Position numbers and translations under genes: made by a program. From Escherichia phage FriedrichZschokke, in the sequence record MZ501067: a stretch of DNA of 64,000 nucleotides; one strand, written 5' to 3'. Below, piece by piece: positions 1 through 48,604 of this stretch (position 1 is the first letter of the stretch; every line of letters begins with the position of its first letter). The notes under the pieces were generated by a model. That model was not told the origin of the DNA and made no database searches. It was given only the letters and a program-made list of their open reading frames with translations.

Positions 1-390
1 ACGAGCATGGCCATGATAATACCCACAATCCATGGCATCTTCGACGTATTGAATCAATTCATAGAACTGTTCACGGGTTAATTGATTGACTTTATCTACA
101 CAACGACGGTCATCTCTTTTTCGCATTGAACTCATACGAATAGTAGTATCATCGTCAATCATCCAGATTCGTTGACCTGCATACATATCAGTAATTGCTT
201 TACGAGTACCGGCAATTCCGTTTACATCATCAGGAATAGTTATAATTTTAGCTCTAGACCCATAGGCATCATAATAAGCTTTTTCTTCATGTTCACGCAC
301 TACAATATGGGGTTCATAATCAGTCGGAAACATATCAAGGGCAGAAACTGCCCCGACACGCTGATAACTTGGAATTACGAATTGAATCAT
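1..390 (-). CDS. Glycosyltransferase, GT-A-like, N-terminal ~130 codons only (3' end runs off the window)
   Basis: Reverse-strand ATG at 390-388 overlaps the gene 42 stop (ATGA). Translation MIQFVIPSYQRVG...RIWMIDDDTTI has a DxD motif typical of GT-A transferases; it does not resemble T4 beta-gt as I recall it. Confidence 0.5.
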   Translation of the reverse strand, partial: MIQFVIPSYQRVGAVSALDMFPTDYEPHIVVREHEEKAYYDAYGSRAKIITIPDDVNGIAGTRKAITDMYAGQRIWMIDDDTTIRMSSMRKRDDRRCVDKVNQLTREQFYELIQYVEDAMDCGYYHGHAR

Positions 391-12978: not shown

Positions 12979-13027
12979 TTAATATCCTCTTTGTTTTGGT
13001 TTATTTTACCAAAAATTTATAAAGCAA

Positions 13028-13048
13028 TATAGGAGCCGAAGCTCCTAT
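13028..13048 (-). terminator. Hairpin / intrinsic terminator
   Basis: Minus RNA uaggagc-UUCG-gcuccua followed by UAUUGCUUU. Confidence 0.45.
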
Positions 13049-14550: not shown

Positions 14551-14820
14551 TTATCTAAGTAAACAGTATGCTTGGAATACTTTTTCCATCATCTTTTTAA
14601 ATTCATGAATATCTATATAATGACTAGTTAGATCAGCATGATATAAAAAGTCTAAAAACTTTTCATGTGTACTAACATATTCACTTTCATTTAATTCAGA
14701 AACATGGCTTTCCCAATATCCAACACCAGTCTTATTTGGGAAAAATGAAATTTTCATGTATTGGTCAACATAGAAAATGCCATAATTTTCAATAGTAATA
14801 GAAATATTAATAAATTTCAT
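14551..14820 (-). CDS. Hypothetical protein (89 aa)
   Basis: ORF on the early strand. Confidence 0.5.
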   Translation of the reverse strand: MKFINISITIENYGIFYVDQYMKISFFPNKTGVGYWESHVSELNESEYVSTHEKFLDFLYHADLTSHYIDIHEFKKMMEKVFQAYCLLR

Positions 14821-16380: not shown

Positions 16381-16701
16381 TTAGTCTTCTATGATATCTC
16401 TATCATATCCAAGTGAAATGAGAGTTTCTTTGAAGTGTTTAATGTTCTTTTGTCTGGAATCATTAATGAAAATGACTGGATAACGAATGTTAAGAGATGT
16501 GAATCCAGCGCGTTTAGCAAGAGATACAATCAGTTGACGATCATACTCAATCTTACCATTATTAGTAAGAACTTTATAAAAAGTAAAAGGAGCATTGAGC
16601 TCCTTTAGAAGTTTTGTAACTGATTGACATCCAGGACAACGACCTACTTCATCTGGAATTCCATAGACTTCAATCTTATTCTTTAAGTTCGAGTTTTGTT
16701 C
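16381..16701 (-). CDS. nrdH: Glutaredoxin-like protein (NrdH-type redoxin)
   Basis: CPGC redox motif in KIEVYGIPDEVGRCPGCQ; no in-frame ATG near the conserved N-terminus; GTG at 16701-16699 with AAGGA 10 nt upstream is the likely start (107 aa). Confidence 0.6.
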   Translation of the reverse strand, partial: EQNSNLKNKIEVYGIPDEVGRCPGCQSVTKLLKELNAPFTFYKVLTNNGKIEYDRQLIVSLAKRAGFTSLNIRYPVIFINDSRQKNIKHFKETLISLGYDRDIIED

Positions 16702-16987
16702 CACGAGAAATAATTCCTTGGTAAGCCCAATAAGGAGGATTAACAGAATCCTCACCAGAGTTTTCTTCAGGAAAATAAACCTGGATAACGAAGCCGGATT
16801 CATCAAAGGTAAAATAAACCGTAGGCAGTTCACCTAACAAATCGGCACGAGCGTTGATTTCTTCGAGGTCTTGTTCACGTCCAGCCCAGAAGATTGGGTT
16901 CAGACTACATTCATAGAAATAATAGTCATTACCGAACATATCAAAACCATTCCAACTCTCTACTACATACCGCTCAAAACTAATCAT
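16676..16987 (-). CDS. Hypothetical protein (103 aa)
   Basis: ORF whose 3' end overlaps the NrdH-like start in another frame. Confidence 0.55.
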   Translation of the reverse strand: MISFERYVVESWNGFDMFGNDYYFYECSLNPIFWAGREQDLEEINARADLLGELPTVYFTFDESGFVIQVYFPEENSGEDSVNPPYWAYQGIISRGTKLELKE

Positions 16988-17320: not shown

Positions 17321-17791
17321 TTAATCATGTGTCCACACCCCATCGGTATTTGACCAAAGTCGCTGATTATCTGATCCTCGCCACAGCTTTTTAGTCGGAA
17401 GATTTTTCTCATACTTCCCATCAATAATAACATCAACATATTTAAGCATTTCTAGTTGTTTAATATCTTCAAACTTATATCCTGTCCACAACCAAATGCT
17501 TTTATTGGGATAAAGATTTTTTACTGTTTGAACCACAGAGTGAATCACGTCTCTGTTATCAGGATAAAGAGGGTCACCTCCGGTTATAGTTAATCCTTCT
17601 ATATAATCATTATTCAAACATTCAATTAATTGTTCTAGTGTTTCACCAGTGAATGGAATACCATTTCTAGCATTCCATGTTGATTTATTATAACACCCTT
17701 CGCATTTATGCAAACAACCTGTAACGAAAAGAACGACCCTGCATCCAGGGCCATTCACAAAATCGCAAGGATAAAATCTATCATAATTCAT
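17321..17791 (-). CDS. nrdG: Anaerobic ribonucleotide reductase activase (radical SAM)
   Basis: 156 aa; CxxxCxxC-type cluster (GCLHKCEGC); overlaps nrdD stop by ATGA. Confidence 0.9.
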   Translation of the reverse strand: MNYDRFYPCDFVNGPGCRVVLFVTGCLHKCEGCYNKSTWNARNGIPFTGETLEQLIECLNNDYIEGLTITGGDPLYPDNRDVIHSVVQTVKNLYPNKSIWLWTGYKFEDIKQLEMLKYVDVIIDGKYEKNLPTKKLWRGSDNQRLWSNTDGVWTHD

Positions 17792-19605
17792 TGGTGTTTA
17801 ACCCTATGCATGATTTCTTTATTTTTGCCGAGATTAAATCCGCGTTCGTTCGGATTTCCCAAATAACCACATGTTCTTCTTATTGTGTTCATCTTTTTAG
17901 GATCAGTTTCTCCACAAATAGAACAAACAAATCCATTTTCAGTAGGAGTCATTTCATGGGTACTTCCACATGTAAAACATTTATCTACTGGCATATTAAC
18001 ACCAAAATAATCTAAATGTTGTGCAGCATAATCCCATACAGCCTCAAGACCTTTTAAGTTATTTTTCATATCAGGAAGTTCAACATAAGAAATGTGACCA
18101 CCTGTCGCAATGAAATGATATGGCGCTTCACGAGAAATCTTTTCAAACTGAGTAATATTTTCTTCTACTGAAACGTGGAAACTGTTAGTGTACCAGCCTT
18201 TATCGGTAACATCTTTTACACTTCCATATTTTTCTGTATCAAGTTTACAGAAGCGATAACAAAGGTTTTCAGCAGGAGTAGAATACAAACTAAAAGCAAA
18301 CCCAGTTCTTTCAGTCCACTGTTTAAGACGAGCATTCATTTTAGTTAAAATTTCTCGTCCAATATCACGACCGACAAGAATATTCAATTCGTGAATACCA
18401 ATGTATCCTAAGGACACTGAACTTCTACCATTTTTAAATAACTCAATTATATCGTCATCAGGTTTAAGACGAACCCCGAATGCACCTTCTTGGTAAAGAA
18501 TAGGAGCAACAGTCGCTTTAACTCCTTTTAAGGAACTAATTCTACACATCAATGCTTCAAAACATAAATCCATTCGTTCATTGAACAATTCAACAAATTT
18601 CTGCTCATTGAATTGAGTTCCAATATAAGAATCTAATGCGATACGAGGAAGATTCAGTGTTACAACACCGAGATTATTACGTCCATCAAGAATTTCATTA
18701 CCGGTTGAATCTTTCCACACACTCAAGAAACTACGACAACCCATTGGAGAAACAGGAATAGATGAGCCGGTGATAGCTTTATTGTTCTTAGCCGAAATGA
18801 TGTCAGGATACATTCTTTTGCTTGCGCACTCTAAAGCAAGCTGCTTAATATCATAGTTCGGGTCGTCTTTATAAAGATTAATACCTTCTTCAACGAACAT
18901 AACAAGTTTAGGGAAAATAGGAGTTATCCCATCACGACCAAGACCTTTAATACGATTTTTCAGAATTGCTTTCTGAATCATTCGTTCAGTCCAGTCAGTT
19001 CCCGTACCAAATGTAATTGTTACAAAGGGTGTTTGTCCGTTTGAACTAAAGAGAGTATTTACTTCATATTCATAAGCTTGGAATGCATCGTATACATCTT
19101 TTTCTGTTTTAGATTGAGCATAATTCAATGCATCAGCGATTTGCCATTTTTCTGCATCCTCAATATGTTTTGCATAGGTGCGTTTAACATAAGGAGAAAG
19201 TACTTTATCTACATTAGCAAAAGTCGTTCCGCCGTATTGGTGGGAAGCAACCTGTGCAGTAATTTGTGCCATAATTGCAGTAGCAACGCCAATTGATTTA
19301 GGAGTTTCAATCTGCGCATTACCTAGCTTAAATCCGTTCTCAAGCATTCCTTTTAAATCTACTAAACAACAATTAGTAAATGGAAGAGCAGGGGAATAAT
19401 CAATATCGTGGAAATGAATAATTCCGCTTTCATGCGCTTTCATAATAAAAGACGGGACCATATTTTTGGCAATGTGTTTAGACACAATACCAGCCATAAG
19501 GTCCCGTTGAGTTGGAAAAACACGAGAATCTTTATTGGCATTCTCGTTTAAAAGGTCTTTATTAGTTTTATGAATCAATCCTTCAATTTCTTTTTCAATT
19601 GTCAT
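17788..19605 (-). CDS. nrdD: Anaerobic ribonucleoside-triphosphate reductase (class III), uninterrupted
   Basis: 605 aa continuous ORF; C-terminal glycyl-radical motif RRTCGYLG and Cys-rich Zn ribbon; no intron or endonuclease insert. Confidence 0.95.
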   Translation of the reverse strand: MTIEKEIEGLIHKTNKDLLNENANKDSRVFPTQRDLMAGIVSKHIAKNMVPSFIMKAHESGIIHFHDIDYSPALPFTNCCLVDLKGMLENGFKLGNAQIETPKSIGVATAIMAQITAQVASHQYGGTTFANVDKVLSPYVKRTYAKHIEDAEKWQIADALNYAQSKTEKDVYDAFQAYEYEVNTLFSSNGQTPFVTITFGTGTDWTERMIQKAILKNRIKGLGRDGITPIFPKLVMFVEEGINLYKDDPNYDIKQLALECASKRMYPDIISAKNNKAITGSSIPVSPMGCRSFLSVWKDSTGNEILDGRNNLGVVTLNLPRIALDSYIGTQFNEQKFVELFNERMDLCFEALMCRISSLKGVKATVAPILYQEGAFGVRLKPDDDIIELFKNGRSSVSLGYIGIHELNILVGRDIGREILTKMNARLKQWTERTGFAFSLYSTPAENLCYRFCKLDTEKYGSVKDVTDKGWYTNSFHVSVEENITQFEKISREAPYHFIATGGHISYVELPDMKNNLKGLEAVWDYAAQHLDYFGVNMPVDKCFTCGSTHEMTPTENGFVCSICGETDPKKMNTIRRTCGYLGNPNERGFNLGKNKEIMHRVKHQ

Positions 19606-20075
19606 TTTAAACTCTTTCTAAGCTGCTTCTTAAATGAAGCTATTAACTGTGTTTTGGTGTCAGATTCATTATATTCAAATCCTCTTTGAAGCATCTCGGC
19701 CATCATTTCCTCTTTTCCTAAACGAGAAAATTCCTTTGATTTATCTCCAACAAAGTTAGGGTGAATATTATTTTGGGTGTAATCGGATTTTAAATAAGTA
19801 AGTAAATTTTCTAACCATTCAAGATAATCAACACCTTGTCCCTTTAAGCCAGAACGATTAAATTTATGCTTCATTTGACCTTCTGCGGCATTGCAGAGAT
19901 TACAAAGCAATCCACGTACCTTTCCTGCTTTTGGTCCATTTAATTCATGGTCATGGTCGAGGTGATTAGCTTGAACGTCAGGATTTAGTTCTCGTTGGCA
20001 AATTAAGCATTTACCATTTTGTGCATCATAAAATTTCTGTTTTTCTTCTTTATATAATTTGCCAGTCAATAACAT
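19602..20075 (-). CDS. 49: Endonuclease VII (Holliday junction resolvase)
   Basis: 157 aa, MLLTGKLYKEEKQKFYDAQNGKCLICQREL...; sequence matches T4 endo VII as recalled. Confidence 0.92.
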   Translation of the reverse strand: MLLTGKLYKEEKQKFYDAQNGKCLICQRELNPDVQANHLDHDHELNGPKAGKVRGLLCNLCNAAEGQMKHKFNRSGLKGQGVDYLEWLENLLTYLKSDYTQNNIHPNFVGDKSKEFSRLGKEEMMAEMLQRGFEYNESDTKTQLIASFKKQLRKSLK

Positions 20076-21057: not shown

Positions 21058-21267
21058 TTAATTTCGCAATTTATTAAGTTCTTCATAATCAATCCAGGAT
21101 TCTAATCCTGATGGCAAATCAGATTCAATTTCCCAAAGAAGTTCTTCAATTTTATGAAGACGATCTAGTTCTTCAGCAGGAATAGTAACCATTGACGGAG
21201 CTCTTGCTACATTAATATCGTAAATCATATTTACCCCAGTTTGACCATACAATCGCCGTATTTCCAC
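21058..21267 (-). CDS. Hypothetical protein (69 aa)
   Basis: ORF on the early strand. Confidence 0.5.
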   Translation of the reverse strand: MEIRRLYGQTGVNMIYDINVARAPSMVTIPAEELDRLHKIEELLWEIESDLPSGLESWIDYEELNKLRN

Positions 21268-21446
21268 TTAGAAATAGACTTTTCACCGTTAGAATAATAA
21301 ACTTCAAGTTTAGCACGATTATTTTTAATTTGAATAACCTTTGCTGTCATCAAAGTTCCATACCCATAATAAACTGCAACTTCATCACCTACATATACCG
21401 CGCTTCCGCGGTAATCGTGAATATAGTCAGTTCCTTCGAGCATCAT
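21231..21446 (-). CDS. Hypothetical protein (71 aa)
   Basis: ORF with ATGA overlap to nrdC. Confidence 0.5.
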   Translation of the reverse strand: MMLEGTDYIHDYRGSAVYVGDEVAVYYGYGTLMTAKVIQIKNNRAKLEVYYSNGEKSISKWKYGDCMVKLG

Positions 21447-28694: not shown

Positions 28695-28895
28695 TTATTT
28701 TGACATTTCTTCGATGTCACGACGATACCCGTCACGAACTTCACGAAGAGCTTCAAGGCCACACATAGGCTCGATACCAGTAATGTGAACTTGATTAATC
28801 TGATACTCTACATCTTCTAACTGAGCGAAAACATAACGACGTTCAGCTGCACACCCAGATTTAGCTTTACCGAAACGTTTATTCAAAGTAGTCAT
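28695..28895 (-). CDS. Hypothetical protein (66 aa)
   Basis: ORF on the early strand. Confidence 0.5.
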   Translation of the reverse strand: MTTLNKRFGKAKSGCAAERRYVFAQLEDVEYQINQVHITGIEPMCGLEALREVRDGYRRDIEEMSK

Positions 28896-29013: not shown

Positions 29014-29562
29014 TCATTTATAATAACTTCGGTGGTTTTCAAGATAGACCTTCTCAAGGAAGTCATCCCAGAAACTCATGTCTACTGTTTTAGGCATACC
29101 GTTCTTAGAAGCTTCAGTAGATGCTGCTTCTACTTGATCGACCACATCTTCCAAAAACTCTTGAACTGTTTTAAATGGATGTTTACCCAACTTCACGTCG
29201 AGAATAAATGGAGCATCTTGAAGTGGATAGACTAAGTCACCAGTTTTGTAAATTTCCAATAGTTGGAGTCCACCACGACAAGCATGACTTAGTGCTTTCC
29301 AATCAATGCCTTCATTGGCTTCGGCCTTACGAGCACGTTCACCGTATTCAGCATCTAATTTGTTCAGTGACTGCTTAAGCTCAATAAGAGAAAGCGTTGT
29401 CTGATATTTACGACCCAACACAGTGTAGAACGTTTGTGGGCCTGTTTTCTCATGATTATGGAACACCCATTCACAGAATTCGTTTTCTGGAAGACGATGC
29501 TTAATATCTTCAACTTTAGTACGACGCTGCTTAATGGAACCGTCTTCTTGGTAATCAACCAT
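29014..29562 (-). CDS. Hypothetical protein (182 aa)
   Basis: ORF starting at the ATG embedded in the CAATG junction at 29560-29564; plausible globular sequence throughout. Confidence 0.55.
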   Translation of the reverse strand: MVDYQEDGSIKQRRTKVEDIKHRLPENEFCEWVFHNHEKTGPQTFYTVLGRKYQTTLSLIELKQSLNKLDAEYGERARKAEANEGIDWKALSHACRGGLQLLEIYKTGDLVYPLQDAPFILDVKLGKHPFKTVQEFLEDVVDQVEAASTEASKNGMPKTVDMSFWDDFLEKVYLENHRSYYK

Positions 29563-30026
29563 TGCTCAGGGATTTGATTAACTACTTTCAATACATCACG
29601 TAATGCAGCCAAACGAGAACCCTTGACGCCGTATTTAGAAGCTTGCTTGCGGACATATCCTAAATATGATTTCATGTTAGTCGTATAAAAACGAGAACGG
29701 TTGTCTTGAATAAACTTCCACACATCAGGCAAATCGGATTTAACCACTAGTTCAGGTGGAGTGTGAAGCATATCCAACGCTACAGTTTCACCATCTGCTG
29801 CTAATTTAAAGAAATATTTAAGACTGTATAGTTCATGGTCAATATCATCTTTAGTGTTTTTAGATGATGTATTGTTAGTATTTTTACTCATATGCTCTTT
29901 AACATTTCCGATAAGAATATCACGAGCAGGAGGAACAAAGATTTCTTTAAAATCTACATCAGATTCTGGGGTAGAAGTTCCATAAAGATGACTACCAAAA
30001 TAGCTTTTCATTACTGTTTTCATCAT
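29364..30026 (-). CDS. Nucleotidyltransferase-fold protein (Pol-beta superfamily), 3' end uncertain
   Basis: N-terminal GSHLYGTSTPESDVDF (GS...DxD NTase signature). The ORF runs 66 codons past a CAATG junction into low-complexity sequence overlapping the next gene; the native end is probably near 29562. Confidence 0.5.
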   Translation of the reverse strand: MMKTVMKSYFGSHLYGTSTPESDVDFKEIFVPPARDILIGNVKEHMSKNTNNTSSKNTKDDIDHELYSLKYFFKLAADGETVALDMLHTPPELVVKSDLPDVWKFIQDNRSRFYTTNMKSYLGYVRKQASKYGVKGSRLAALRDVLKVVNQIPEQWLITKKTVPLSSVVLKLKILSIVFQKTNSVNGCSIIMRKQAHKRSTLCWVVNIRQRFLLLSLSSH

Positions 30027-30484
30027 TCAGCCTTATATTCAATAACAGGACATACTTTAGCTTTACGAGCTTTTAAAAATTCAACGATAACCGATTTCTT
30101 GGGTTGAATAGGAGGTAAACCTTTATACGCCCTATCAATATTTTCTACGTGTAAAGCATAATCCTTTTTCCATTTATAATCTTTATATTTTTCACGCAAA
30201 TGTGCAGGAATAACAAATGAACCGATAATAAGTAAAACAACCAAAAGCGCAAGTATAAATGCTGATGGAAGCAAAGTCCATAAACTACCAAAAATAATCC
30301 AACGTTGTAGGCTTTCTGCACAAATAATTGTTAGCCCTACGAGTATAGCACATCCAAAAATAGAAACGAAAAATGTAGGAATGGCAATAGACCAAAAATA
30401 TGCGCACAGTGTCTTAGGTCGTTGCCATTCATCGTTAAACAATTTGAATAATTTATAGTGCCAAGAGTTTTCATTAATAATCAT
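30023..30484 (-). CDS. Membrane protein (153 aa)
   Basis: Two to three hydrophobic helices (FWSIAIPTFFVSIFGCAILVGLTIICA; LLPSAFILALLVVLLIIGSFVI). Confidence 0.55.
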   Translation of the reverse strand: MIINENSWHYKLFKLFNDEWQRPKTLCAYFWSIAIPTFFVSIFGCAILVGLTIICAESLQRWIIFGSLWTLLPSAFILALLVVLLIIGSFVIPAHLREKYKDYKWKKDYALHVENIDRAYKGLPPIQPKKSVIVEFLKARKAKVCPVIEYKAE

Positions 30485-30486
30485 AA

Positions 30487-31008
30487 TTATTCTTTCATTG
30501 AAGGCGTAACGGTTGTTAAATACTTAATCATAGCTTCAGCTTCTGATTTTGATAGTGAAATTTCTTCACCGTTTTGGCGAATAGAAACAAAATCTGGATG
30601 ACGATCACCACCAGCTTTTAAAACACACATATAAGTATCAGCTTCGCCTTCAATATTTGAAATGATTGAAGCAGTTCCACATGAATGAGGTTTTTGATAA
30701 ATCAATACAGCTTTTCTTCCACCATTTGACTGTTCATAGGCTTTTAATACATCAAGCAAATCAGTTCTTTTATCAATAGCTAAGATGTTATTTTCATCTT
30801 CAATATTAAATCCTTCGGATACTTCATAAAGAGTTACCCATAAATCACCGATGTCAATAACAGCATTTACTTTTCCACGGCTTTCAAGAGTATGACAAAT
30901 TTTCTTGATTTCGTCATAACTCATTTTAATAATATCATCTCCTTGACTAAGGAAGATGTCATTTTTAAATTCAACACGAATTAAACCGCTTCCACTTGAA
31001 ATAAACAT
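30487..31008 (-). CDS. Hypothetical protein (173 aa), paralog 1 of a tandem pair
   Basis: C-terminus ...ISLSKSEAEAMIKYLTTVTPSMKE resembles the C-terminus of the adjacent 184 aa ORF. Confidence 0.55.
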   Translation of the reverse strand: MFISSGSGLIRVEFKNDIFLSQGDDIIKMSYDEIKKICHTLESRGKVNAVIDIGDLWVTLYEVSEGFNIEDENNILAIDKRTDLLDVLKAYEQSNGGRKAVLIYQKPHSCGTASIISNIEGEADTYMCVLKAGGDRHPDFVSIRQNGEEISLSKSEAEAMIKYLTTVTPSMKE

Positions 31009-31014
31009 ATTTCC

Positions 31015-31569
31015 TCACTTTGAAATCATAGTTGGAATAACAGAATCAAGATAAGTCTTTAGTGCAATAGCTTCGTCTTTGGTAAATGTGACAATATGTG
31101 CTCGAGAATCATCAATTTGACGAATAGTTAAGACATCTCCATCTTCATAACATTTTGATACGTTTAAAACAGTTTCATCATTCTGATTGCAAGCGTTAGT
31201 AATAATAGCATTGCAATTTTTAAACCATTTTAAACTATGTTTTCTTTCATTAGAATAATAAAAATATTTAATCTTATCTATAAAACTATCCCAATGGATA
31301 ACTGATAAGCATATTGACTCGCTTTCAATATTAAATCCTGGGCATGAAGAATAAAAATGAATTTTATGCTCATCATTAATGCTTACAATTTTATCAGTAT
31401 AAGGATTTTCAATTTGGGTTAAATGAATGATTTCACTAGGCGTAAAATATAGCATATCGTCTTCTTGTGTCAAACGATACATATTATTTACTTTTTCTAT
31501 AGCCAATTCACCAAAAAGTGAACTAACTTCTAATACTAATCGTTTCATATTAATCCTTTTTATTGGCAC
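31015..31569 (-). CDS. Hypothetical protein (184 aa), paralog 2 of a tandem pair
   Basis: C-terminus ...VTFTKDEAIALKTYLDSVIPTMISK. Confidence 0.55.
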   Translation of the reverse strand: MPIKRINMKRLVLEVSSLFGELAIEKVNNMYRLTQEDDMLYFTPSEIIHLTQIENPYTDKIVSINDEHKIHFYSSCPGFNIESESICLSVIHWDSFIDKIKYFYYSNERKHSLKWFKNCNAIITNACNQNDETVLNVSKCYEDGDVLTIRQIDDSRAHIVTFTKDEAIALKTYLDSVIPTMISK

Positions 31570-34549: not shown

Positions 34550-34735
34550 TTAAAGCGTATTCACATAAGCTATTAATTCATTTTCTTTCTTATCAAACCG
34601 ATCAGCAAATTCTTCCTGCTGTTCGGGAGATAGCGGGCCGTATTCATCATAAAAGGTGTTTGCTTCTATATGCTCATCTAGAAGTTCATGGATAAGCTCA
34701 AACAATTTATCTTTTTGTTCTTTACTCAGACTCAT
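34550..34735 (-). CDS. Hypothetical acidic protein (61 aa)
   Basis: ORF on the early strand. Confidence 0.5.
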   Translation of the reverse strand: MSLSKEQKDKLFELIHELLDEHIEANTFYDEYGPLSPEQQEEFADRFDKKENELIAYVNTL

Positions 34736-34901
34736 ATATTAATTTCCAGGAGTTTTAAAATAATTCGCTTTTGCTTAAATATTTCCATAGTTAAATGACC
34801 AGTATCTTTTTGACCGATTCCAATGGCAAAACCTTTATTAACAGCGAGTTCAATTAAATTATCAAGCTCACGTAACACTTCGTATTGTAACTCAAAACTA
34901 T

Positions 34902-35129
34902 TCATTTTGGTTTACCTTCTTTAACGAAATCAGGATAAGGATAAAATCCTGAATAAAATCCTTCACCTTTATGATTGATGCATCCTTTATTAGAACAATA
35001 GCACCAATAATCGAAATCACAAGCCATTTCATCATTACATAAAGCAAAAACAACAGGCCATTTACACTTTTCACAATGGGCATTTTTAAGAATACTAGTT
35101 TGGCTCATAACCATGTAACCTTTAAGCAA
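34902..35129 (-). CDS. Cys-rich small protein (up to 75 aa; start uncertain)
   Basis: Multiple CxxC pairs (CEKCKW..., CYCSNKGC). Confidence 0.45.
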   Translation of the reverse strand: MLKGYMVMSQTSILKNAHCEKCKWPVVFALCNDEMACDFDYWCYCSNKGCINHKGEGFYSGFYPYPDFVKEGKPK

Positions 35130-35317
35130 TATTCTTCTACATGTTGTTTACGACCTTTCTTATCAATAAAGGTATATTCAACGAATGTTCCAATGTAGTC
35201 TTTATCTACATCATGTGGACTATTAATTGGACATTTAGTACGGCAAATGCGTTCCCATTGACGAATAATTTCCACTTTGTTTTTAGGATCAAACGGATGT
35301 GGGTAATGTACTTTCAT
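35105..35317 (-). CDS. Hypothetical protein (70 aa)
   Basis: ORF on the early strand. Confidence 0.5.
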   Translation of the reverse strand: MKVHYPHPFDPKNKVEIIRQWERICRTKCPINSPHDVDKDYIGTFVEYTFIDKKGRKQHVEEYCLKVTWL

Positions 35318-35768
35318 AATCCACCACTATTAAATCAATATCAGGAGTAAACATGTCGATTAATTTAGAAACCTTATCCCAATCGCCGCCAGCAATACCA
35401 CAACCTATGCGTGGAATGTAAATTACTGGTTTAAACAAAAGGGTTTCTGCCTGTAGATTTAATTCTATCATGCAGTTTACTAAAGCACCATAATCAAGAT
35501 TAGGACCTGGTTCGTATTGCGTATACAGGTTATAGCATATACCAAAACCATTAGGTTTATGTTTAAAAACAATAGACATATCGCCTAATTTATCACGAGA
35601 ACCGTACTCAGTAGTGGTTTTATCTATTTCTAAAATTTTGGGATAGGCTCTTGCTAATTGACCAGCTACACCTGAACCCATAGTATGAAAACAATTGCAC
35701 CCGTGCGCAATAATATTACCTTGAAGAAATAGGGCGACAATATCGCCCTTGATATATTTTACAATCAT
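35289..35768 (-). CDS. Macro-domain-like protein (predicted ADP-ribose binding/processing)
   Basis: 159 aa; GDIV...NIIAHGCNCFHTMGSGVAGQLA and later IGCGIAGGDW fit the two glycine-rich loops of macro domains (cf. DAIVNAAN...GGGGVxxAI and GxYGYP). Confidence 0.6.
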   Translation of the reverse strand: MIVKYIKGDIVALFLQGNIIAHGCNCFHTMGSGVAGQLARAYPKILEIDKTTTEYGSRDKLGDMSIVFKHKPNGFGICYNLYTQYEPGPNLDYGALVNCMIELNLQAETLLFKPVIYIPRIGCGIAGGDWDKVSKLIDMFTPDIDLIVVDYESTLPTSV

Positions 35769-37175: not shown

Positions 37176-37451
37176 TTCTTTAAATCTAATCAATTTATTC
37201 ATAGACTTTGAAACTTCTGCACGAACCTCATGTAAGTTTTTAAGCTGTTCAAGACGCTGCTCATAGTAAGCAATTTCATCTTCTTCGAGACAGTCCTGTG
37301 AATCTTCTTTAAGATAGCGTGCATAGTCCTGGAAAGCTTTACGGACTACTTCCTGGAAGTCATCAAGACTTTGAATTTTCTTAGGAGCGGCAGATACACG
37401 ACGAGGGGCAGTATAATACTCATAACCAAACCCTGCACTTAATTGAGCCAT
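37173..37451 (-). CDS. Hypothetical protein (~92 aa)
   Basis: ORF trimmed to an internal Met (MAQLSAGF...). Confidence 0.45.
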
Positions 37452-37717
37452 TAGTATTTTTCCTCTGGTTGGAACACAGCACGGCAAGCCCACATACTTG
37501 CTTCTTTGAGTTTCGTTTTAGCAATAGTTAACTGATCGAGGCTTTCGGCGTAATTCTTCGCGAGTTCATCATCTTCACAGCTATCAAATGCTTCCCAGAA
37601 TTCATCGTATAAAGCGTCAAAGATAAGTCCTAAACGAACTTCAGCGTCTTTGATAGCATTCACTTTACCGATTTTCTCTTCAGTATGCGGCTTATAACCT
37701 TTAATGTCTTCAATCAT
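37451..37717 (-). CDS. Hypothetical protein (~88 aa)
   Basis: ORF trimmed to an internal Met (MIEDIKGY...). Confidence 0.45.
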
Positions 37718-37931
37718 ATTTGACTTCCTCACCAGTACATAAATCGTATTCAACTAAACGAATAGGTTCATGAATGCCATATCCCTGAACAGAAATTTCT
37801 GTAGTAGGATAAATTCCATCAATATCACCCATATTCCACGCTTCGTTAAATTGCTGTTCGCCTGAATTACTAAACCACTCGGCGAAAGCATTTAGCACAT
37901 CTTTAGAACCTTCAATAATTATCTTTGCCAT
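37710..37931 (-). CDS. Hypothetical protein (73 aa)
   Basis: ORF with ATGA overlap to the GrcA-like gene. Confidence 0.5.
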   Translation of the reverse strand: MAKIIIEGSKDVLNAFAEWFSNSGEQQFNEAWNMGDIDGIYPTTEISVQGYGIHEPIRLVEYDLCTGEEVKYD

Positions 37932-38293
37932 TATAAGCTCTCAGTAAAGGTACGAGCAATAACGTCGCGCTGCTGTTCCGGAGTCAGAGAGTTAAAGCGA
38001 ACTGCATAACCGGATACACGGATGGTCAGCTGCGGATATTTTTCCGGATGCTTAACTGCATCTTCCAGAGTTTCACGACGCAGAACGTTAACGTTCAGGT
38101 GTTGACCACCTTCAATTTTAACTGTAGGCTGTGGCTCAATTTCAATTTCACGAGCATGCAAACCGTAGAAAATTTCTGGGTCTACAAAAGAGTCCTCTTT
38201 AAAGGTTTTAGAGACAATAATTCGTGCTTGAATACCATCTTCAAAATAAATAGTACCTTTATGTGTGCCTTCAAGAATTTGATATGCTTTCAT
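37931..38293 (-). CDS. grcA: Autonomous glycyl-radical cofactor (GrcA/YfiD-like)
   Basis: 120 aa; C-terminal ~60 aa (...[33 protein letters not shown]) carries the RVSGY glycyl-radical motif and appears near-identical to E. coli GrcA as recalled. Confidence 0.8.
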
Positions 38294-38300
38294 ATAAACC

Positions 38301-38627
38301 TCAATTAGAAAATAAATTTATCCAAGATTGTTCTTTAATTAAAAATGGCTCAGAATCATATGCCATTAAACTTTGGGTGATTAGTCCTTTAAAAGGTCCA
38401 TCAATAAATTCCATGGTAAAATATGGAATTTTATTCATTAACTGTGCGTTAGGAGCAGTGCACAAAACTCTGCATCCTTTGAATACACCTTTTTGTAATT
38501 TGTATTGCTTGGGATAAAATTCGCTTAAAATGTTGTTATTTGCCAAAATTTCAAAATGATTTACCAATTTATTTTTAATAGTTTTTGGCGAAAAATAGAG
38601 ATATTCGAAAAGCTGTGTGTCTGTCAT
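38301..38627 (-). CDS. Hypothetical protein (~108 aa)
   Basis: ORF trimmed to an internal Met. Confidence 0.45.
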
Positions 38628-39223
38628 TATTGCATTCCGATTACGAAAAACTGTGGACGAGTAATACCACCAATGCAACATTTACTATTACAGCAGTAGT
38701 GTACAGTGTCAATATGGACGCTATAAATCTTATCCATATCAGGAGATTTGACAGGCTCATCAATTATATACAAAATTCGCGAAAGCGATAAACCTCTGAA
38801 CTTGCTTCCTTTATTACCAATAAAACTGCGTACAGAATCAGTAAATAAACGAAAACGTATATCATCATTAGAATAACGCGAAAATTCCTTTTTAATGTTA
38901 TTTGCAGAAATTTTAGCGTAAGCTGAAGTATTAGAAAGAACAATAACTGTTCCGCCATCATACAGCCAATTAGCAGCAAAGTTAGTCACAGCAATTGATT
39001 TACCAGATTGACGTCCACCATCTATACGAAGTGTGCAGTACTGCTTAAGTAATTCTTCAAATGGCGGGATATATTCGTTTTTACAAATTTCTTCTACTCT
39101 AGCATCAGAATGGTGTGTAAAAGCATTCATCAGGGATAGATACGGGCCAGTTAAAAATGTTCTCATATTTTCTCTCTTAATTTTTGGGCCATTCCATGGC
39201 ACATGAGTTGTCCATTCCTGCAT
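38627..39223 (-). CDS. P-loop NTPase-like protein (198 aa)
   Basis: Walker A-like GGRQSGKS and Walker B-like LYIIDE; C-terminal Cys cluster. Confidence 0.5.
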   Translation of the reverse strand: MQEWTTHVPWNGPKIKRENMRTFLTGPYLSLMNAFTHHSDARVEEICKNEYIPPFEELLKQYCTLRIDGGRQSGKSIAVTNFAANWLYDGGTVIVLSNTSAYAKISANNIKKEFSRYSNDDIRFRLFTDSVRSFIGNKGSKFRGLSLSRILYIIDEPVKSPDMDKIYSVHIDTVHYCCNSKCCIGGITRPQFFVIGMQ

Positions 39224-39301: not shown

Positions 39302-39775
39302 TTATTTGAACGATTTAACGTACTGAATAGAACCTTTACTATTTACAAAGGCAATTTTACCATTTTTACTATACATGGTAGCAGTACGTTGATAACCATA
39401 AGTTTGTTTACCAGATTGATAACCAACTAATGCGAAATTATCTTCGCCCATTTTATTCTGTTTAGCGCGAATGCGTTCATGACCATGTGCCATAAGAACC
39501 TTAGCATCACCGGTTGCAATGGATCGACGAGTTTTTTCATCTTCAACTGTATTAACAAAGTCGTCAAATGAATCAAATTTAGCATGAGATTTATTATACA
39601 GTTTTCCATCTACTGCATAATTATATCCCTGTACATCCATCTCAACTTCTGTACCATCATCCAATACAGCAGTGATTTTTTGACCTTTTTTAAATTTCAA
39701 AAGATCAGTAAAAGATTCAGCAATAATTTGAGAATTAATAGCTGCTTCAGTGATAAATTCTTGATATGTTTTCAT
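39302..39775 (-). CDS. ipIII: Capsid internal protein (IPIII-like)
   Basis: 157 aa; N-terminal capsid-targeting sequence MKTYQEFITE shared with the adjacent IP gene; basic. Confidence 0.7.
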   Translation of the reverse strand: MKTYQEFITEAAINSQIIAESFTDLLKFKKGQKITAVLDDGTEVEMDVQGYNYAVDGKLYNKSHAKFDSFDDFVNTVEDEKTRRSIATGDAKVLMAHGHERIRAKQNKMGEDNFALVGYQSGKQTYGYQRTATMYSKNGKIAFVNSKGSIQYVKSFK

Positions 39776-39791
39776 ATGATTCCTTTAATTT

Positions 39792-40109
39792 TTATTCTTT
39801 AGGAAAATTTTTAGAATATGCGTCGTAAAGCTTATTTCCAATACGACGAAAAACTCTAGCTGCAAAACGATTTTCTGGGTTTTTAATCATAATTTGCATC
39901 ATATAAGTACCCGCGTCTGAAAGAGCTTCTTCATAGTACCCGTTAATTTCTTTAAGAGTCCTACGTTTACCACCAGGACCATCAACAGTGATTTTCCATT
40001 TACCTGTAGAAGTGCGACTCGGCGGCTCAACTTGTTCAATCCAAATATAACCGCCTTCTACACGTTGTCCTGCAGCAGATTCTGCAATAAATTCTTGATA
40101 TGTTTTCAT
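39792..40109 (-). CDS. ipII: Capsid internal protein (IPII-like)
   Basis: 105 aa; N-terminal capsid-targeting sequence MKTYQEFIAE. Confidence 0.7.
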   Translation of the reverse strand: MKTYQEFIAESAAGQRVEGGYIWIEQVEPPSRTSTGKWKITVDGPGGKRRTLKEINGYYEEALSDAGTYMMQIMIKNPENRFAARVFRRIGNKLYDAYSKNFPKE

Positions 40110-44419: not shown

Positions 44420-44460
44420 AAGTCTATAGTAACGCCTTCATACTTAGATGTAAACTATTT
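44420..44460 (-). promoter_or_regulatory. Early promoter
   Basis: Minus strand: -35 TTTACA (44449-44454), 17 bp spacer, -10 TACTAT (44426-44431). Confidence 0.5.
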
Positions 44461-44610
44461 CAACATCGCCTTTTGCTGTTTTATAACCTTCAGCCCAAGA
44501 TACAACCGAGTTTTTATCTGAAGATTCAAATTCTGGCATTGGGCTTTCGCCAATGTTCACGCAGTATGTTTCTTCATTTTCGTCGAACCAAATAATTAAA
44601 GTAGTCATTT
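44449..44610 (-). CDS. Small hypothetical protein (~53 aa)
   Basis: ORF read by hand (MTTLIIWFDENEETYCVNIGESPMPEF...); below the track cut-off. Confidence 0.35.
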
Positions 44611-45491: not shown

Positions 45492-45567
45492 TGGTCGAGG
45501 CAGTAGGGATCGAACCTACGACCCAGGACTTAGAAGGTCCTTGCTCTTCCTTCTGAGCTATGCCCCG
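45492..45567 (-). tRNA. tRNA-Arg (anticodon UCU)
   Basis: Hand-folded cloverleaf: 7 bp acceptor, T-loop UUCGAUC, anticodon loop CUUCUAA; CCA encoded. Confidence 0.85.
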
Positions 45568-45571
45568 TAAT

Positions 45572-45647
45572 TGGGGTGACCGATGGGAGTCGAACCCATG
45601 ACTACGAGAATCACAATCTCGAGTTCTACCAACTGAACTACGGCCAC
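45572..45647 (-). tRNA. tRNA-His (anticodon GUG)
   Basis: Hand-folded cloverleaf: anticodon loop UUGUGAU, discriminator C73, CCA encoded; no G at position -1 (U instead). Confidence 0.75.
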
Positions 45648-45761
45648 ATTAATACCTACTCCAACAATCAAGATGTCTTCACACGAAATTAAGAGAAGAG
45701 TGATCAGTTCAACCCCTATAATCGCGTCAAGTAGATATTAATGTGACAGTTGTCACAAATT

Positions 45762-45836
45762 TGGCGGACGTGATAGGATTCGAACCTATAACCAATCGCT
45801 TAACAGGCGATCGCTCTGCCATTGAGCTACACATCC
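45762..45836 (-). tRNA. tRNA-Asn (anticodon GUU)
   Basis: Hand-folded cloverleaf: anticodon loop CUGUUAA, T-loop UUCGAAU, CCA encoded. Confidence 0.8.
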
Positions 45837-45840
45837 AAAT

Positions 45841-45927
45841 TGGTGGGGAGTGGTGGAGTCGAACCACCCGAGTCGCAATGACAATGGATTTACAGTCCAC
45901 ACCGCTACCTCTACGGGATAACTCCCC
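45841..45927 (-). tRNA. tRNA-Tyr (anticodon GUA), long variable arm
   Basis: 87 nt; perfect acceptor GGGGAGU/ACUCCCC; anticodon loop CUGUAAA; variable region resembles E. coli tRNA-Tyr; CCA encoded. Confidence 0.8.
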
Positions 45928-45940
45928 TTAATTCTTAATT

Positions 45941-46015
45941 TGGTGGCCCTGGGTGGAATTGAACCACCATCTGGCGATTATGAGTCGCTTGCTTGAACCT
46001 TCCAGCTACAGGGCC
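45941..46015 (-). tRNA. tRNA-Ile (anticodon CAU, lysidine-type; Met not excluded)
   Basis: Anticodon stem-loop AGCGA-CUCAUAA-UCGCC closely resembles E. coli tRNA-Ile2; paired head-to-tail with tRNA-Thr as in the T4 Thr-Ile dimer. Confidence 0.75.
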
Positions 46016-46016
46016 T

Positions 46017-46092
46017 TGGTGCTGATTGACGGAATCGAACCGCCGACCTTCTCATTACAAGTGAGTTGCTCTACCTACTGAGCTAAATCAGC
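46017..46092 (-). tRNA. tRNA-Thr (anticodon UGU)
   Basis: Hand-folded cloverleaf: anticodon loop CUUGUAA; CCA encoded. Confidence 0.8.
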
Positions 46093-46097
46093 AAAAC

Positions 46098-46187
46098 TGG
46101 CGGAGGCGATAGGATTTGAACCTATGAGTCGCCGGAGCGACTGCCGGTTTTCAAGACCGGTGCATTAAACCACTCTGCCACGCCTCC
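46098..46187 (-). tRNA. tRNA-Ser (anticodon UGA), long variable arm
   Basis: 90 nt; anticodon stem-loop CCGGU-CUUGAAA-ACCGG; CCA encoded. Confidence 0.8.
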
Positions 46188-46189
46188 AG

Positions 46190-46263
46190 TCTCCATACAA
46201 GGATTTGAACCTTGGACCTCCTGATCCCAAATCAGGCGCTCTACCAAACTGAGCTACACGGAG
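46190..46263 (-). tRNA. tRNA-Pro (anticodon UGG)
   Basis: Anticodon loop UUUGGGA; CCA not encoded; 2 nt from tRNA-Ser (dimeric precursor arrangement). Confidence 0.8.
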
Positions 46264-46273
46264 TAAATTAAAT

Positions 46274-46347
<74 letters not shown>

Positions 46348-46352
46348 AAATT

Positions 46353-46439
46353 TGGTGCGAGAAGTGGGACTCGAACCCACAAGGAAATCATTCCGCAGCA
46401 TTTTAAGTGCTGTGCCTTTACCAATTTGACCATTCTCGC
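46353..46439 (-). tRNA. tRNA-Leu (anticodon UAA), long variable arm
   Basis: 87 nt; anticodon stem-loop CAGCA-CUUAAAA-UGCUG; CCA encoded; 1 nt from tRNA-Gln. Confidence 0.8.
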
Positions 46440-46440
46440 G

Positions 46441-46513
46441 CTGGGAATAAAGGACTCGAACCTTTGCATCCTGGAATCAAAATCCAGTGCCTTACCAACT
46501 TGGCTAATTCCCA
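46441..46513 (-). tRNA. tRNA-Gln (anticodon UUG)
   Basis: UGGGAAU acceptor; anticodon stem-loop CUGGA-UUUUGAU-UCCAG; resembles E. coli tRNA-Gln; CCA not encoded. Confidence 0.85.
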
Positions 46514-47547: not shown

Positions 47548-47835
47548 TTACAAAAGATTTTTAGCAATAATCTTGAGATGTGCCGCAGAAATGTGTTTAG
47601 CTTTAAACAACGCAGTTTCTTCAGCAGGAGAGATAACGATTGTAGCACCATCCTTTTTAGCAGACCACCCATCACCTAGGTAAACAGTACCTTTGATTTC
47701 TTCGCCATCAACCAGACTAATCATTGGTTTACCTTCTCGTCCTTTATTTGCTTTAATAACTTCAGAAGTAAGAGTAGCCTCGGTAATGGTAGAAACCGGG
47801 GTAGTTGTAGAAGTAAATTCTTTGAAAGTTTTCAT
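47548..47835 (-). CDS. ipI: Capsid internal protein I
   Basis: 95 aa; N-terminal capsid-targeting-type leader MKTFKEF...; matches T4 IPI as recalled. Confidence 0.85.
   Translation of the reverse strand: MKTFKEFTSTTTPVSTITEATLTSEVIKANKGREGKPMISLVDGEEIKGTVYLGDGWSAKKDGATIVISPAEETALFKAKHISAAHLKIIAKNLL

Positions 47836-47907: not shown

Positions 47908-48604
<697 letters not shown>

What the first reader, a model, noticed from the sequence alone, without database searches (positions are those of the whole stretch)
17788..19605. nrdD is uninterrupted, and the window contains no homing-endonuclease genes
The anaerobic ribonucleotide reductase gene is a single 605-codon ORF, whereas T4 nrdD carries a group I intron with a homing endonuclease as I recall it. 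I also see no GIY-YIG or HNH ORFs anywhere in 64 kb, including the tRNA region and the nrdC-tk stretch where T4 carries such genes. This phage appears intron-free and endonuclease-poor here.
Basis: partly seen in the sequence, partly recalled or inferred. Interest (0 to 1): 0.4.

Follow-up and report, generated by a model that had tools for sequence, protein, structure and literature searches.

The report
Intron-free nrdD, no homing endonucleases
This T4-like phage segment has an uninterrupted anaerobic ribonucleotide reductase gene and none of the selfish "homing endonuclease" genes that T4 carries here, but that is the normal state for T4's relatives, and T4 is the exception.

Summary
The window is a Tequatrovirus segment running from gene 42 to gene 11.

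**nrdD.** nrdD (17788-19605, minus strand) is one 605-codon ORF. It is exactly 1033 nt shorter than T4's unspliced locus and 600/605 aa identical to spliced T4 NrdD. It reads straight through Tyr180, the codon the T4 intron splits. Rfam finds no intron in the window even at E<=1, while the same model scores the T4 intron at 105 bits.

**Homing endonucleases.** All six T4 homing-endonuclease genes of this interval are absent: mobB, mobC, I-TevII, mobD, segB and segC. Two slots hold other cargo.
- The mobD slot holds a membrane protein and a y05I-like paralog.
- The segB slot holds four extra tRNAs.

These searches found no GIY-YIG, HNH, NUMOD or LAGLIDADG domain, and the positive controls passed:
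- Pfam on all 124 coding-strand ORFs
- PHROGs on ten ORFs (nine island ORFs plus gene 49)
- a six-frame search with T4 Seg/Mob profiles

**One nuance.** Gene 49, directly beside nrdD, is endonuclease VII. It is an HNH-like resolvase, not a homing enzyme.

**Prevalence.** The nrdD intron occurs in 25 phage records. About 670 records carry this gene block. Published reviews already call T4 "an oddity" for its 15 endonucleases. Interest is low and the state is already known.

The parts
17788..19605 (-). nrdD, anaerobic (class III) ribonucleotide reductase large subunit, uninterrupted 605-codon ORF
   Evidence: ORF list. Pfam NRDD 1-562/562 E=4.7e-170 plus Gly_radical. 600/605 aa identical to spliced T4 NrdD. 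The glycyl-radical motif RRTCGYLG and the C-terminal CxxC...CxxC are visible in the translation.
19067..19068 (-). Empty intron insertion site: the position where T4 carries its 1033-nt group I intron with I-TevII (phase 1 in the Tyr180 codon)
   Evidence: blastn blocks abut here and T4 is exactly 1033 nt longer. Junction reconstruction. No Rfam intron in the window. T4 control scores 105 bits.
19027..19069 (-). Cluster of 10 silent differences from T4 (coding nt 537-579) at and just 3' of the insertion site; this is the common intronless allele
   Evidence: Densest mismatch cluster in the gene, site-specific permutation P=0.002, gene-wide P=0.06. The window-type 100-mer is at >=95% identity in 517 records. 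The T4-type spliced junction is never contiguous above 95%.
17321..17791 (-). nrdG, radical-SAM activase. Its start overlaps the nrdD stop by 4 nt (17788-17791), leaving no room for the mobC gene that T4 has here
   Evidence: ORF coordinates. Pfam Fer4_12 E=1e-47 and Radical_SAM. T4 has mobC between nrdG and nrdD. mobC tblastn best E=0.028, and that hit lies elsewhere.
19602..20075 (-). Gene 49, endonuclease VII (Holliday-junction resolvase). It is the only HNH-like (His-Me finger) nuclease in the window and is not a homing endonuclease
   Evidence: 100% aa identity to T4 gp49. Pfam Endonuclease_7 E=5e-22 plus Endonuc-dimeris E=1.5e-33. PHROG endonuclease VII E=5e-61 and weak 'HNH endonuclease' E=5e-6.
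12979..13044 (-). Empty mobB slot (intergenic region between a-gt and a-gt.2)
   Evidence: blastn jumps from T4 37817 to 38679, skipping mobB at 37885-38679. mobB tblastn best E=1.5.
30023..31008 (-). mobD slot occupied by other cargo: a 153-aa predicted membrane protein (30023-30484) and a 173-aa y05I-like protein (30487-31008), a paralog of the neighbouring mobD.1
   Evidence: 962 bp with no T4 match at the place where T4 has mobD. Pfam T4_y05I_N/C E=3e-33 and 3.5e-23. PHROG 'membrane protein' E=1e-49 and an unknown-function family. mobD tblastn best E=0.94.
45568..46016 (-). segB slot occupied by four extra tRNA genes (His, Asn, Tyr, Met) in place of T4's segB and tRNA-Ile
   Evidence: ARAGORN and Rfam. 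blastn gap at 45538-45995. segB tblastn best E=0.2. The same arrangement is described for T2L, RB1 and RB3 (PMC2330249).
54156..54161 (+). Empty segC slot: gene 5.1 abuts gene 5.4, so T4's segC and 5.3 are both missing
   Evidence: blastn jumps from T4 80217 to 80775. T4 annotation. segC tblastn best E=0.063.

Best explanation
The window carries the ordinary intronless nrdD allele and unoccupied (or differently occupied) homing-endonuclease sites, as is typical of Tequatrovirus phages.

Group I introns and free-standing seg/mob genes are optional selfish elements. They spread in mixed infections by cutting an empty allele and being copied in during double-strand-break repair, together with some flanking sequence. 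This phage lineage does not carry them in the gene 42-gene 11 interval.

The consequences are simple. nrdG and nrdD are directly coupled by an ATGA overlap. NrdD is translated from an unspliced message. Two of the slots hold alternative accessory cargo. T4, with 15 such genes, is the outlier.

Shown: absence of the intron and of all six T4 elements; absence of any recognisable endonuclease domain; rarity of each element among relatives; the exclusive association of T4-type exon flanks with intron presence.

Inferred: that the site was never invaded rather than cleaned up afterwards; that T4's divergent flanks arrived with the intron by co-conversion.
For: Single 605-aa ORF. Exactly 1033 nt shorter than T4 and 600/605 aa identical across the junction. 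No Rfam intron at gathering thresholds or at E<=1, with a working positive control. Clean blastn breaks at all six T4 endonuclease slots. No tblastn or profile hit in six frames, with leave-one-out controls recovering segB, segC, mobB, mobC and mobD. Pfam and PHROGs negative with positive controls passing.

Prevalence, as records with >=80% coverage: intron 25, mobB 26, mobC 32, mobD 47, segB 126, segC 38. The nrdG-nrdD-49 block is in 669 records. The window-type junction is at >=95% identity in 517 records. No record has a contiguous T4-type junction above 95% identity.

Literature: variable intron occurrence in T-even phages, and T4 as 'an oddity' with 15 endonucleases (PMC2988022). segB-less tRNA regions with extra tRNAs in T2L, RB1 and RB3 (PMC2330249).
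Against: Nothing contradicts the absence. The limits are as follows.
- Several small ORFs have no known function, for example 16676-16987, 28695-28895 and 44444-44608. A completely new endonuclease class could not be recognised by these searches.
- The leave-one-out GIY-YIG profile missed I-TevII, so the home-made six-frame search is not sensitive to very divergent members.
- Record counts include duplicates, laboratory T4 stocks and partial entries.
- megablast only sees elements more than about 85% identical to T4's.
- 'Never invaded' versus 'lost' is not resolved.
Confidence: 0.9

Rival explanations
1. Secondary loss. The lineage descended from a T4-like, element-rich ancestor and lost the intron and the endonuclease genes by precise deletion or by recombination with empty alleles, as in the homing-endonuclease gain-decay-loss cycle.
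For: The general life-cycle model of homing endonucleases (established knowledge). T4 itself carries decayed copies: mobA is a 37-aa remnant and I-TevIII is truncated, which shows that decay happens in this group.
Against: The window has no remnants or pseudogene fragments of any of the six elements in six frames. The slots are either seamless junctions (the nrdG/nrdD 4-nt overlap, 5.1/5.4 abutting) or hold unrelated genes. Among hundreds of intronless relatives none carries the T4-type exon flanks that a recently cleaned allele would be expected to keep.
Confidence: 0.1
2. Refractory target. The 10 silent differences clustered at and just 3' of the insertion site make this nrdD allele a poor substrate for I-TevII. 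The intron would then be absent because it cannot home here, not merely because it has not arrived. This does not exclude the main explanation.
For: The densest T4-versus-window mismatch cluster in the gene lies exactly at the site, all silent, with site-specific P=0.002. I-TevII binds a long stretch spanning the insertion and cleavage sites and cleaves at a distance from the insertion site (PMC1865063). I recall the cut being about 13-15 nt 3' of the site, which would fall inside the cluster, but I did not verify that here. The intron is confined to 25 records although its sequence is >=99% identical in all of them.
Against: The same pattern is what co-conversion of donor flanks predicts, with no resistance needed (co-conversion is described in PMC2988022). 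The gene-wide test is only P=0.06. T-even intron endonucleases are described as making sequence-tolerant minor-groove contacts (reference titles). No cleavage data exist for this allele.
Confidence: 0.2
3. A hidden, unrecognised homing endonuclease sits among the small unknown-function ORFs of the non-T4 islands.
For: Some island ORFs have no Pfam hit at all (16676-16987, 28695-28895, 44444-44608, 34732-34905). Their PHROG families, where tested, have unknown function.
Against: They are 54-103 aa, shorter than all but the shortest T4 examples, once T4's decayed copies mobA and I-TevIII are set aside (T4's intact ones are 140-264 aa). None has a GIY-YIG, HNH or NUMOD signal even at E<=1 when scanned singly. 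Most of the rest belong to conserved T4-group DUF families (DUF7200, DUF7205, DUF7438, Phage_tudor, Phage_zn_bind).
Confidence: 0.03
4. Artefact: the intron or endonuclease genes were dropped by assembly or by editing of the sequence.
For: None. One possible sequencing-type error exists elsewhere, a 1-nt deletion in a G-run in nrdC.11.
Against: Hundreds of independently sequenced phages have the same uninterrupted junction at 95-100% identity and the same nrdG-nrdD-49 block. All the junctions keep their reading frames.
Confidence: 0.01

Closest known systems
Intronless nrdD alleles of T-even phages (e.g. RB51, RB23, RB61, RB68, AR1, EC121, vB_Eco_TB37)
   Same: The 100-nt stretch around the insertion site is 99-100% identical. 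The whole nrdG-nrdD-49-pin block is 97.5-98.5% identical with the same gene order.
   Different: Nothing of substance. No record in the collection was shown to be the same phage: best 98.5% over 3.5 kb, and 98.5-98.9% with 96-98% coverage over 20 kb.
Phage T4 nrdD (sunY) with its group I intron encoding I-TevII
   Same: Same gene, same neighbours. The protein is 600/605 identical after splicing, and flanking DNA is 95-97% identical.
   Different: T4 has a 1033-nt intron (Rfam RF00028, 105 bits) carrying the 258-aa GIY-YIG endonuclease I-TevII, and mobC between nrdG and nrdD. The window has neither. The exon sequence just 3' of the site differs at a cluster of silent positions.
segB-less tRNA regions of T2L, RB1 and RB3 (PMC2330249)
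   Same: No segB, and extra tRNA genes in its place. These include tRNA-Asn, which that paper maps as SegB's preferred cleavage site in T2L.
   Different: The paper reports that T2L also has two extra ORFs. I did not align the window with those sequences, so exact correspondence is untested.
T4 endonuclease VII (gp49), His-Me finger / HNH-like resolvase
   Same: The window ORF 19602-20075 is 100% identical in protein sequence and matches both Pfam domains of the family.
   Different: It is a junction-resolving and packaging enzyme, not a mobile homing endonuclease. It has no NUMOD-type DNA-binding modules.

Membership tests
Class III anaerobic ribonucleotide reductase large subunit (NrdD) | Full-length NRDD catalytic domain | tested here: met
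   Pfam PF13597 matched 1-562 of 562, E=4.7e-170.
Class III anaerobic ribonucleotide reductase large subunit (NrdD) | C-terminal glycyl-radical domain with the RxCGY motif | tested here: met
   Pfam Gly_radical E=2e-24. 'RRTCGYLG' is visible in the translation.
Class III anaerobic ribonucleotide reductase large subunit (NrdD) | Adjacent radical-SAM activase NrdG | tested here: met
   ORF 17321-17791, Fer4_12 E=1e-47 plus Radical_SAM, overlapping the nrdD stop by 4 nt.
Group I self-splicing intron | Match to the group I catalytic core (Rfam RF00028) | tested here: not met
   No match in the 64 kb at gathering threshold or at E<=1. The T4 nrdD intron control scores 105.3 bits.
Group I self-splicing intron | Extra, non-coding sequence interrupting the host gene relative to intronless or spliced orthologs | tested here: not met
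   The gene is 1818 nt, equal to spliced T4 length. One ORF, collinear with spliced T4 NrdD.
GIY-YIG homing endonucleases (I-TevI/II, SegA-G) | GIY-YIG catalytic domain, usually with NUMOD-type DNA-binding modules | tested here: not met
   No PF01541, PF19835 or NUMOD hit in any ORF. The six-frame Seg/I-Tev profile has best E=4. Controls are positive.
HNH homing endonucleases (MobA-E, I-TevIII) | HNH catalytic motif in a free-standing or intron-borne ORF | tested here: not met
   No PF01844, HNH_3, HNH_4 or HNH_5 hit. The six-frame Mob profile has best E=1.7. Controls are positive. gp49 is HNH-like but belongs to Endonuclease_7.
LAGLIDADG, His-Cys box, PD-(D/E)XK and EDxHD homing endonucleases | The corresponding catalytic domains | tested here: not met
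   No such Pfam family appears among the hits. The only PD-(D/E)XK-type hit is TnsA-like_N in gp4, the conserved head-completion protein.
Recombination endonuclease VII (gp49) | Endonuclease_7 catalytic domain plus the T4-type dimerisation domain | tested here: met
   PF02945 E=5.4e-22 and PF09124 E=1.5e-33. 100% identity to T4 gp49.
Susceptible I-TevII homing site | Cleavage of the intronless allele by I-TevII | not testable with these tools
   Only sequence comparison is possible: 11 differences from the T4 exon junction in 100 nt, 10 of them in nt 537-579.

The most novel reading that the evidence does not exclude
The tight cluster of silent substitutions at the nrdD insertion site is shared by most intronless Tequatroviruses. 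It could mark a homing-site variant that I-TevII cuts poorly. That would explain why a >=99%-conserved, mobile intron is confined to a few percent of sequenced relatives.
Probability: 0.2. Interest if true: 0.3.

Novelty: already known. Interest (0 to 1): 0.07.

Why it matters
It matters little beyond correct annotation. The patchy distribution of T-even introns has been documented since the late 1980s, and the unusual endonuclease load of T4 is stated in reviews (PMC2988022). The useful outcome is practical. The window can be annotated as a standard intronless Tequatrovirus segment with empty mobB, mobC, I-TevII and segC sites and substituted mobD and segB sites. In a mixed infection with T4, those sites are the loci expected to be overwritten by T4 sequence (marker exclusion). 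The junction-allele survey gives a small, clean illustration that T4's exon flanks travel with the intron.

Tried and rejected
- Hidden endonuclease in the non-T4 islands. I mapped every stretch without T4 homology (13 islands). I scanned their ORFs on both strands with Pfam and nine of them (plus gene 49) with PHROGs. None is an endonuclease.
- Decayed remnants. tblastn with nine T4 endonucleases, plus six-frame searches with home-made GIY-YIG and HNH profiles, found nothing better than E=0.028 and E=1.7 respectively.
- Incomplete T4 reference set. Loci L004 and L005 (the rest of T4) never appeared in the script folder. So segD, segE, segG, mobE, I-TevI and I-TevIII could not be added to those local searches.
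- Sub-threshold intron signal. The permissive Rfam scan shows only tRNA-related noise.
- Sensitivity of the concatenated Pfam scans. I worried that packing ORFs into pseudo-proteins would hide weak domains. An embedded control with mobD and I-TevII was still detected at E<=0.01.
- Shadow ORFs. I did not Pfam-scan shadow ORFs inside conserved genes. All DNA outside the islands is collinear with T4 non-endonuclease genes, so there is no room for an extra gene.
- Exact source. I did not identify which deposited phage the window comes from. The best matches are 98-99% identical.
Full report
**What the window is.** The region around the finding matches hundreds of Tequatrovirus (T4-like) genomes. 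The best match is 98.5% identical over 3.5 kb (Escherichia phage vB_Eco_TB37), and RB51 is at 97.5%. A gene-by-gene tblastn of T4 proteins against the window and a blastn map show that the window is collinear with T4 from gene 42 to gene 11. The order is: partial glycosyltransferase, 42, imm, 43, regA, 62, 44, 45, rpbA, 46, 47, a-gt, 55, nrdH, nrdG, nrdD, 49, pin, nrdC...tk...regB...denV, e, the tRNA cluster, ipI, 57, 1, 3, 2 and 4 on the minus strand. Genes 53, 5, 6, 7, 8, 9, 10 and 11 follow on the plus strand.

**The observation about nrdD.** ORF 17788-19605 (minus strand) is a single 605-codon ORF. It matches Pfam's NRDD model end to end (E=4.7e-170) and the glycyl-radical domain. The T4 record annotates nrdD as two joined pieces, with I-TevII between them. 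T4's unspliced locus is 2851 nt and the window's gene is 1818 nt, so the difference is exactly 1033 nt. The two alignment blocks abut at coding nt 536/539. Placing the T4 intron after coding nt 538 gives a 5' exon ending in U and an intron ending in G, as expected for a group I intron. The window protein is then 600/605 identical to spliced T4 NrdD and reads straight through '...AYEYEVNTLF...', with the insertion point in phase 1 of Tyr180. In window coordinates the empty site lies between 19068 and 19067.

**Introns in the window.** Rfam at curated thresholds finds only the 11 tRNAs. At E<=1 there is still no group I or group II intron. As a positive control, the same search on the T4 nrdD region finds Intron_gpI at 105.3 bits against a threshold of 50.

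**The observation about homing endonucleases.** In T4 the equivalent interval holds six such genes (Table 1 of PMC2988022):
- mobB, between a-gt and a-gt.2
- mobC, between nrdG and nrdD
- I-TevII, in the nrdD intron
- mobD, between nrdC.11 and mobD.1
- segB, between tRNA-Arg and tRNA-Ile
- segC, between 5.1 and 5.3

None has a tblastn match in the window below E=0.01, and the blastn map shows a break at each slot. Four slots are seamless:
- The mobB slot is a 66-nt intergenic gap.
- At the mobC slot, nrdG overlaps nrdD by 4 nt.
- The intron site is empty.
- At the segC slot, gene 5.1 abuts gene 5.4.

Two slots hold other cargo:
- The mobD slot carries 962 bp of non-T4 DNA. It encodes a 153-aa predicted membrane protein and a 173-aa y05I-like protein, which is a paralog of the adjacent mobD.1.
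- The segB slot carries four extra tRNA genes: His, Asn, Tyr and Met.

**Could a different endonuclease be hiding?** I listed every stretch of the window without T4 homology, which gave 13 islands of at most 962 bp. I scanned their ORFs on both strands singly with Pfam at permissive thresholds and nine of them (plus gene 49) with PHROGs. The ORFs with hits belong to conserved T4-group families of unknown function: DUF7200, DUF7205, DUF7438, Phage_tudor, Phage_zn_bind and y05I. The rest have no hit. None shows a nuclease domain.

I then scanned all 124 coding-strand ORFs of 40 aa or more, packed into pseudo-proteins of at most 1032 aa. I also scanned the six baseplate genes and the partial ORF at the left edge. 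No GIY-YIG, SegE_GIY-YIG, HNH-family, NUMOD or LAGLIDADG model was hit.

Three controls support the negative result:
- All six T4 endonucleases are recognised by the same tool when scanned singly.
- The two weakest, mobD and I-TevII, are still recognised when embedded in a 1001-aa pseudo-protein.
- A six-frame search with profiles built from T4 Seg/I-Tev and Mob proteins found nothing better than E=1.7 in the window. Leave-one-out versions recovered segB, segC, mobB, mobC and mobD in T4, though not the divergent I-TevII.

**One nuance.** The ORF immediately beside the finding, 19602-20075, overlaps the nrdD start. It is gene 49, endonuclease VII, 100% identical to T4's. It matches Endonuclease_7 and its dimerisation domain and, weakly, a PHROG labelled 'HNH endonuclease' (E=5e-6). 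From established structural knowledge, endonuclease VII has the beta-beta-alpha-metal (His-Me finger) fold shared with HNH enzymes. So 'no HNH ORFs anywhere' is not strictly true at superfamily level. But gp49 is a junction resolvase present in T4 and its relatives, not a mobile element. The other nucleases in the window are likewise ordinary T4 genes: gp46/47, RegB, DenV and the TnsA-like fold of gp4.

**How unusual is this?** It is not unusual. The nrdG-nrdD-49 block is present with at least 80% coverage in 669 phage records. The T4 nrdD intron is present in 25, several of them T4 stocks or duplicates. The other elements are similarly rare by the same criterion: mobB 26, mobC 32, mobD 47, segB 126 and segC 38. 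These counts include redundant and partial records and only elements close to T4's, so they are rough, but the direction is clear.

The literature says the same:
[quoted passage not shown] - T2L, RB1 and RB3 were shown to lack segB. T2L carries four extra tRNA genes, and SegB's preferred cut site lies in its tRNA-Asn gene (PMC2330249).
- A survey of phage ribonucleotide reductases notes the nrdD intron only 'in some T-even phages' (PMC3653736).

**A small extra result.** The differences between the window and spliced T4 nrdD are not evenly spread. The densest cluster in the gene is 10 silent changes in coding nt 537-579, and it sits exactly at and just 3' of the insertion site. The site-specific permutation gives P=0.002, and the test for a cluster this dense anywhere in the gene gives P=0.06.

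I queried the phage collection with 100-mers centred on the junction. The window-type sequence is present at 95% identity or better in 517 records. No record has a contiguous T4-type junction above 95% identity, and most are at 93%. So the window has the common intronless allele, and T4's exon flanks are found only together with the intron.

The simplest reading is co-conversion: the flanks were imported with the intron, as the review describes for td. An alternative is that the common allele is a poor I-TevII substrate. That is not excluded, and it does not conflict with the main explanation. I-TevII binds across the insertion and cleavage sites and cuts at a distance (PMC1865063). I recall the cut being about 13-15 nt 3' of the site, which would fall inside the cluster, but I did not verify that here.

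**How it works.** NrdD is translated from a continuous message and is coupled to nrdG through an overlapping ATGA, with no need for splicing. The absent elements are optional selfish DNA that spreads by double-strand-break repair in mixed infections. This lineage does not carry them in this interval. If co-infected with T4, these loci would be expected to be converted to the T4 form. That expectation is inferred from the T4 x T2L results in PMC2330249 and PMC2988022 and was not tested here.

**Limits.**
- The window lacks td and nrdB and nine of T4's 15 endonuclease slots, so the phage as a whole cannot be called intron-free.
- Whether the sites were never invaded or were cleaned up later is not resolved. 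The absence of remnants and of T4-type flanks favours the former.
- A wholly new endonuclease class among the 54-103-aa unknown ORFs cannot be formally excluded, but it is unlikely.

**Verdict.** The state described is the known, majority condition of T4 relatives. Interest is low and the novelty rating is 'already known'.

Noticed in passing
window 29014-30026 (indel near 29560): nrdC.11 (nucleotidyltransferase, Pfam RlaP) is split into two overlapping ORFs (29364-30026 and 29014-29562) by a 1-nt deletion in a G-run (GGG in T4, GG here). This is either a real frameshift/pseudogene or a homopolymer sequencing error.
   Followed up: partly
window 17321-17791: NrdG is only 80% identical in protein (86% in DNA) to T4's, while the neighbouring nrdD, 49 and 55.8 are 93-100% identical. 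The divergent patch borders the slot where T4 carries mobC. This is reminiscent of reports that nuclease genes sit at boundaries of genetic exchange (title of PMC10448857).
   Followed up: no
window 45492-46513: There are eleven tRNA genes (Arg, His, Asn, Tyr, Met, Thr, Ser, Pro, Gly, Leu, Gln) against eight in T4. tRNA-Ile and segB are missing, and His, Asn, Tyr and Met are extra. tRNA-Asn is the preferred SegB cut site in T2L according to PMC2330249.
   Followed up: partly
window 1-390 (minus strand, runs off the left edge): The gene downstream of gene 42 is not T4's beta-glucosyltransferase. It has no T4 DNA match and weakly hits Pfam TAGT (TET-associated glycosyltransferase, E=2e-7). This suggests a different hydroxymethylcytosine glycosylation scheme; I recall T2 and T6 having a beta-alpha-glucosyltransferase here.
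   Followed up: partly
window 39302-40109: T4's ipII and ipIII are replaced by two unrelated ORFs: 157 aa (Pfam DUF7412) and 105 aa. Both begin MKTYQEFI(T/A)E, as the T4 ipII and ipIII N-termini do. This looks like the shared capsid-targeting leader of internal proteins, so they are probably alternative internal (injected) proteins.
   Followed up: no
window 30487-31569: There are two tandem y05I-like genes: 30487-31008 and mobD.1 at 31015-31569. T4 has one. The extra copy, plus a membrane-protein gene (30023-30484), sits where T4 has mobD.
   Followed up: partly
window 21058-21446: T4 gene 49.3 is replaced by two small ORFs. One (21058-21267) matches a PHROG annotated 'antitoxin from a toxin-antitoxin system' (E=2e-39) and weakly matches Pfam T7 gp5.9 RecBCD inhibitor (E=0.004). 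It is a possible anti-defence gene.
   Followed up: no
window 14551-14820 and 16676-16987: Two extra small genes are absent from T4. One is a DUF7200 ORF between genes 55 and 55.1. The other is a 103-aa ORF with no Pfam hit between nrdH and 55.8 (PHROG 2749, unknown function).
   Followed up: no
window 37451-37753, 47548-47835, 47908-48363, 35289-35768: Several known counter-defence genes are present, as in T4: vs.4 (Acb2/Tad1 hairpin domain), ipI (nuclease inhibitor IPI) and 57B (Acb1). The macro-domain gene tk.4 is only 57% identical to T4's.
   Followed up: no
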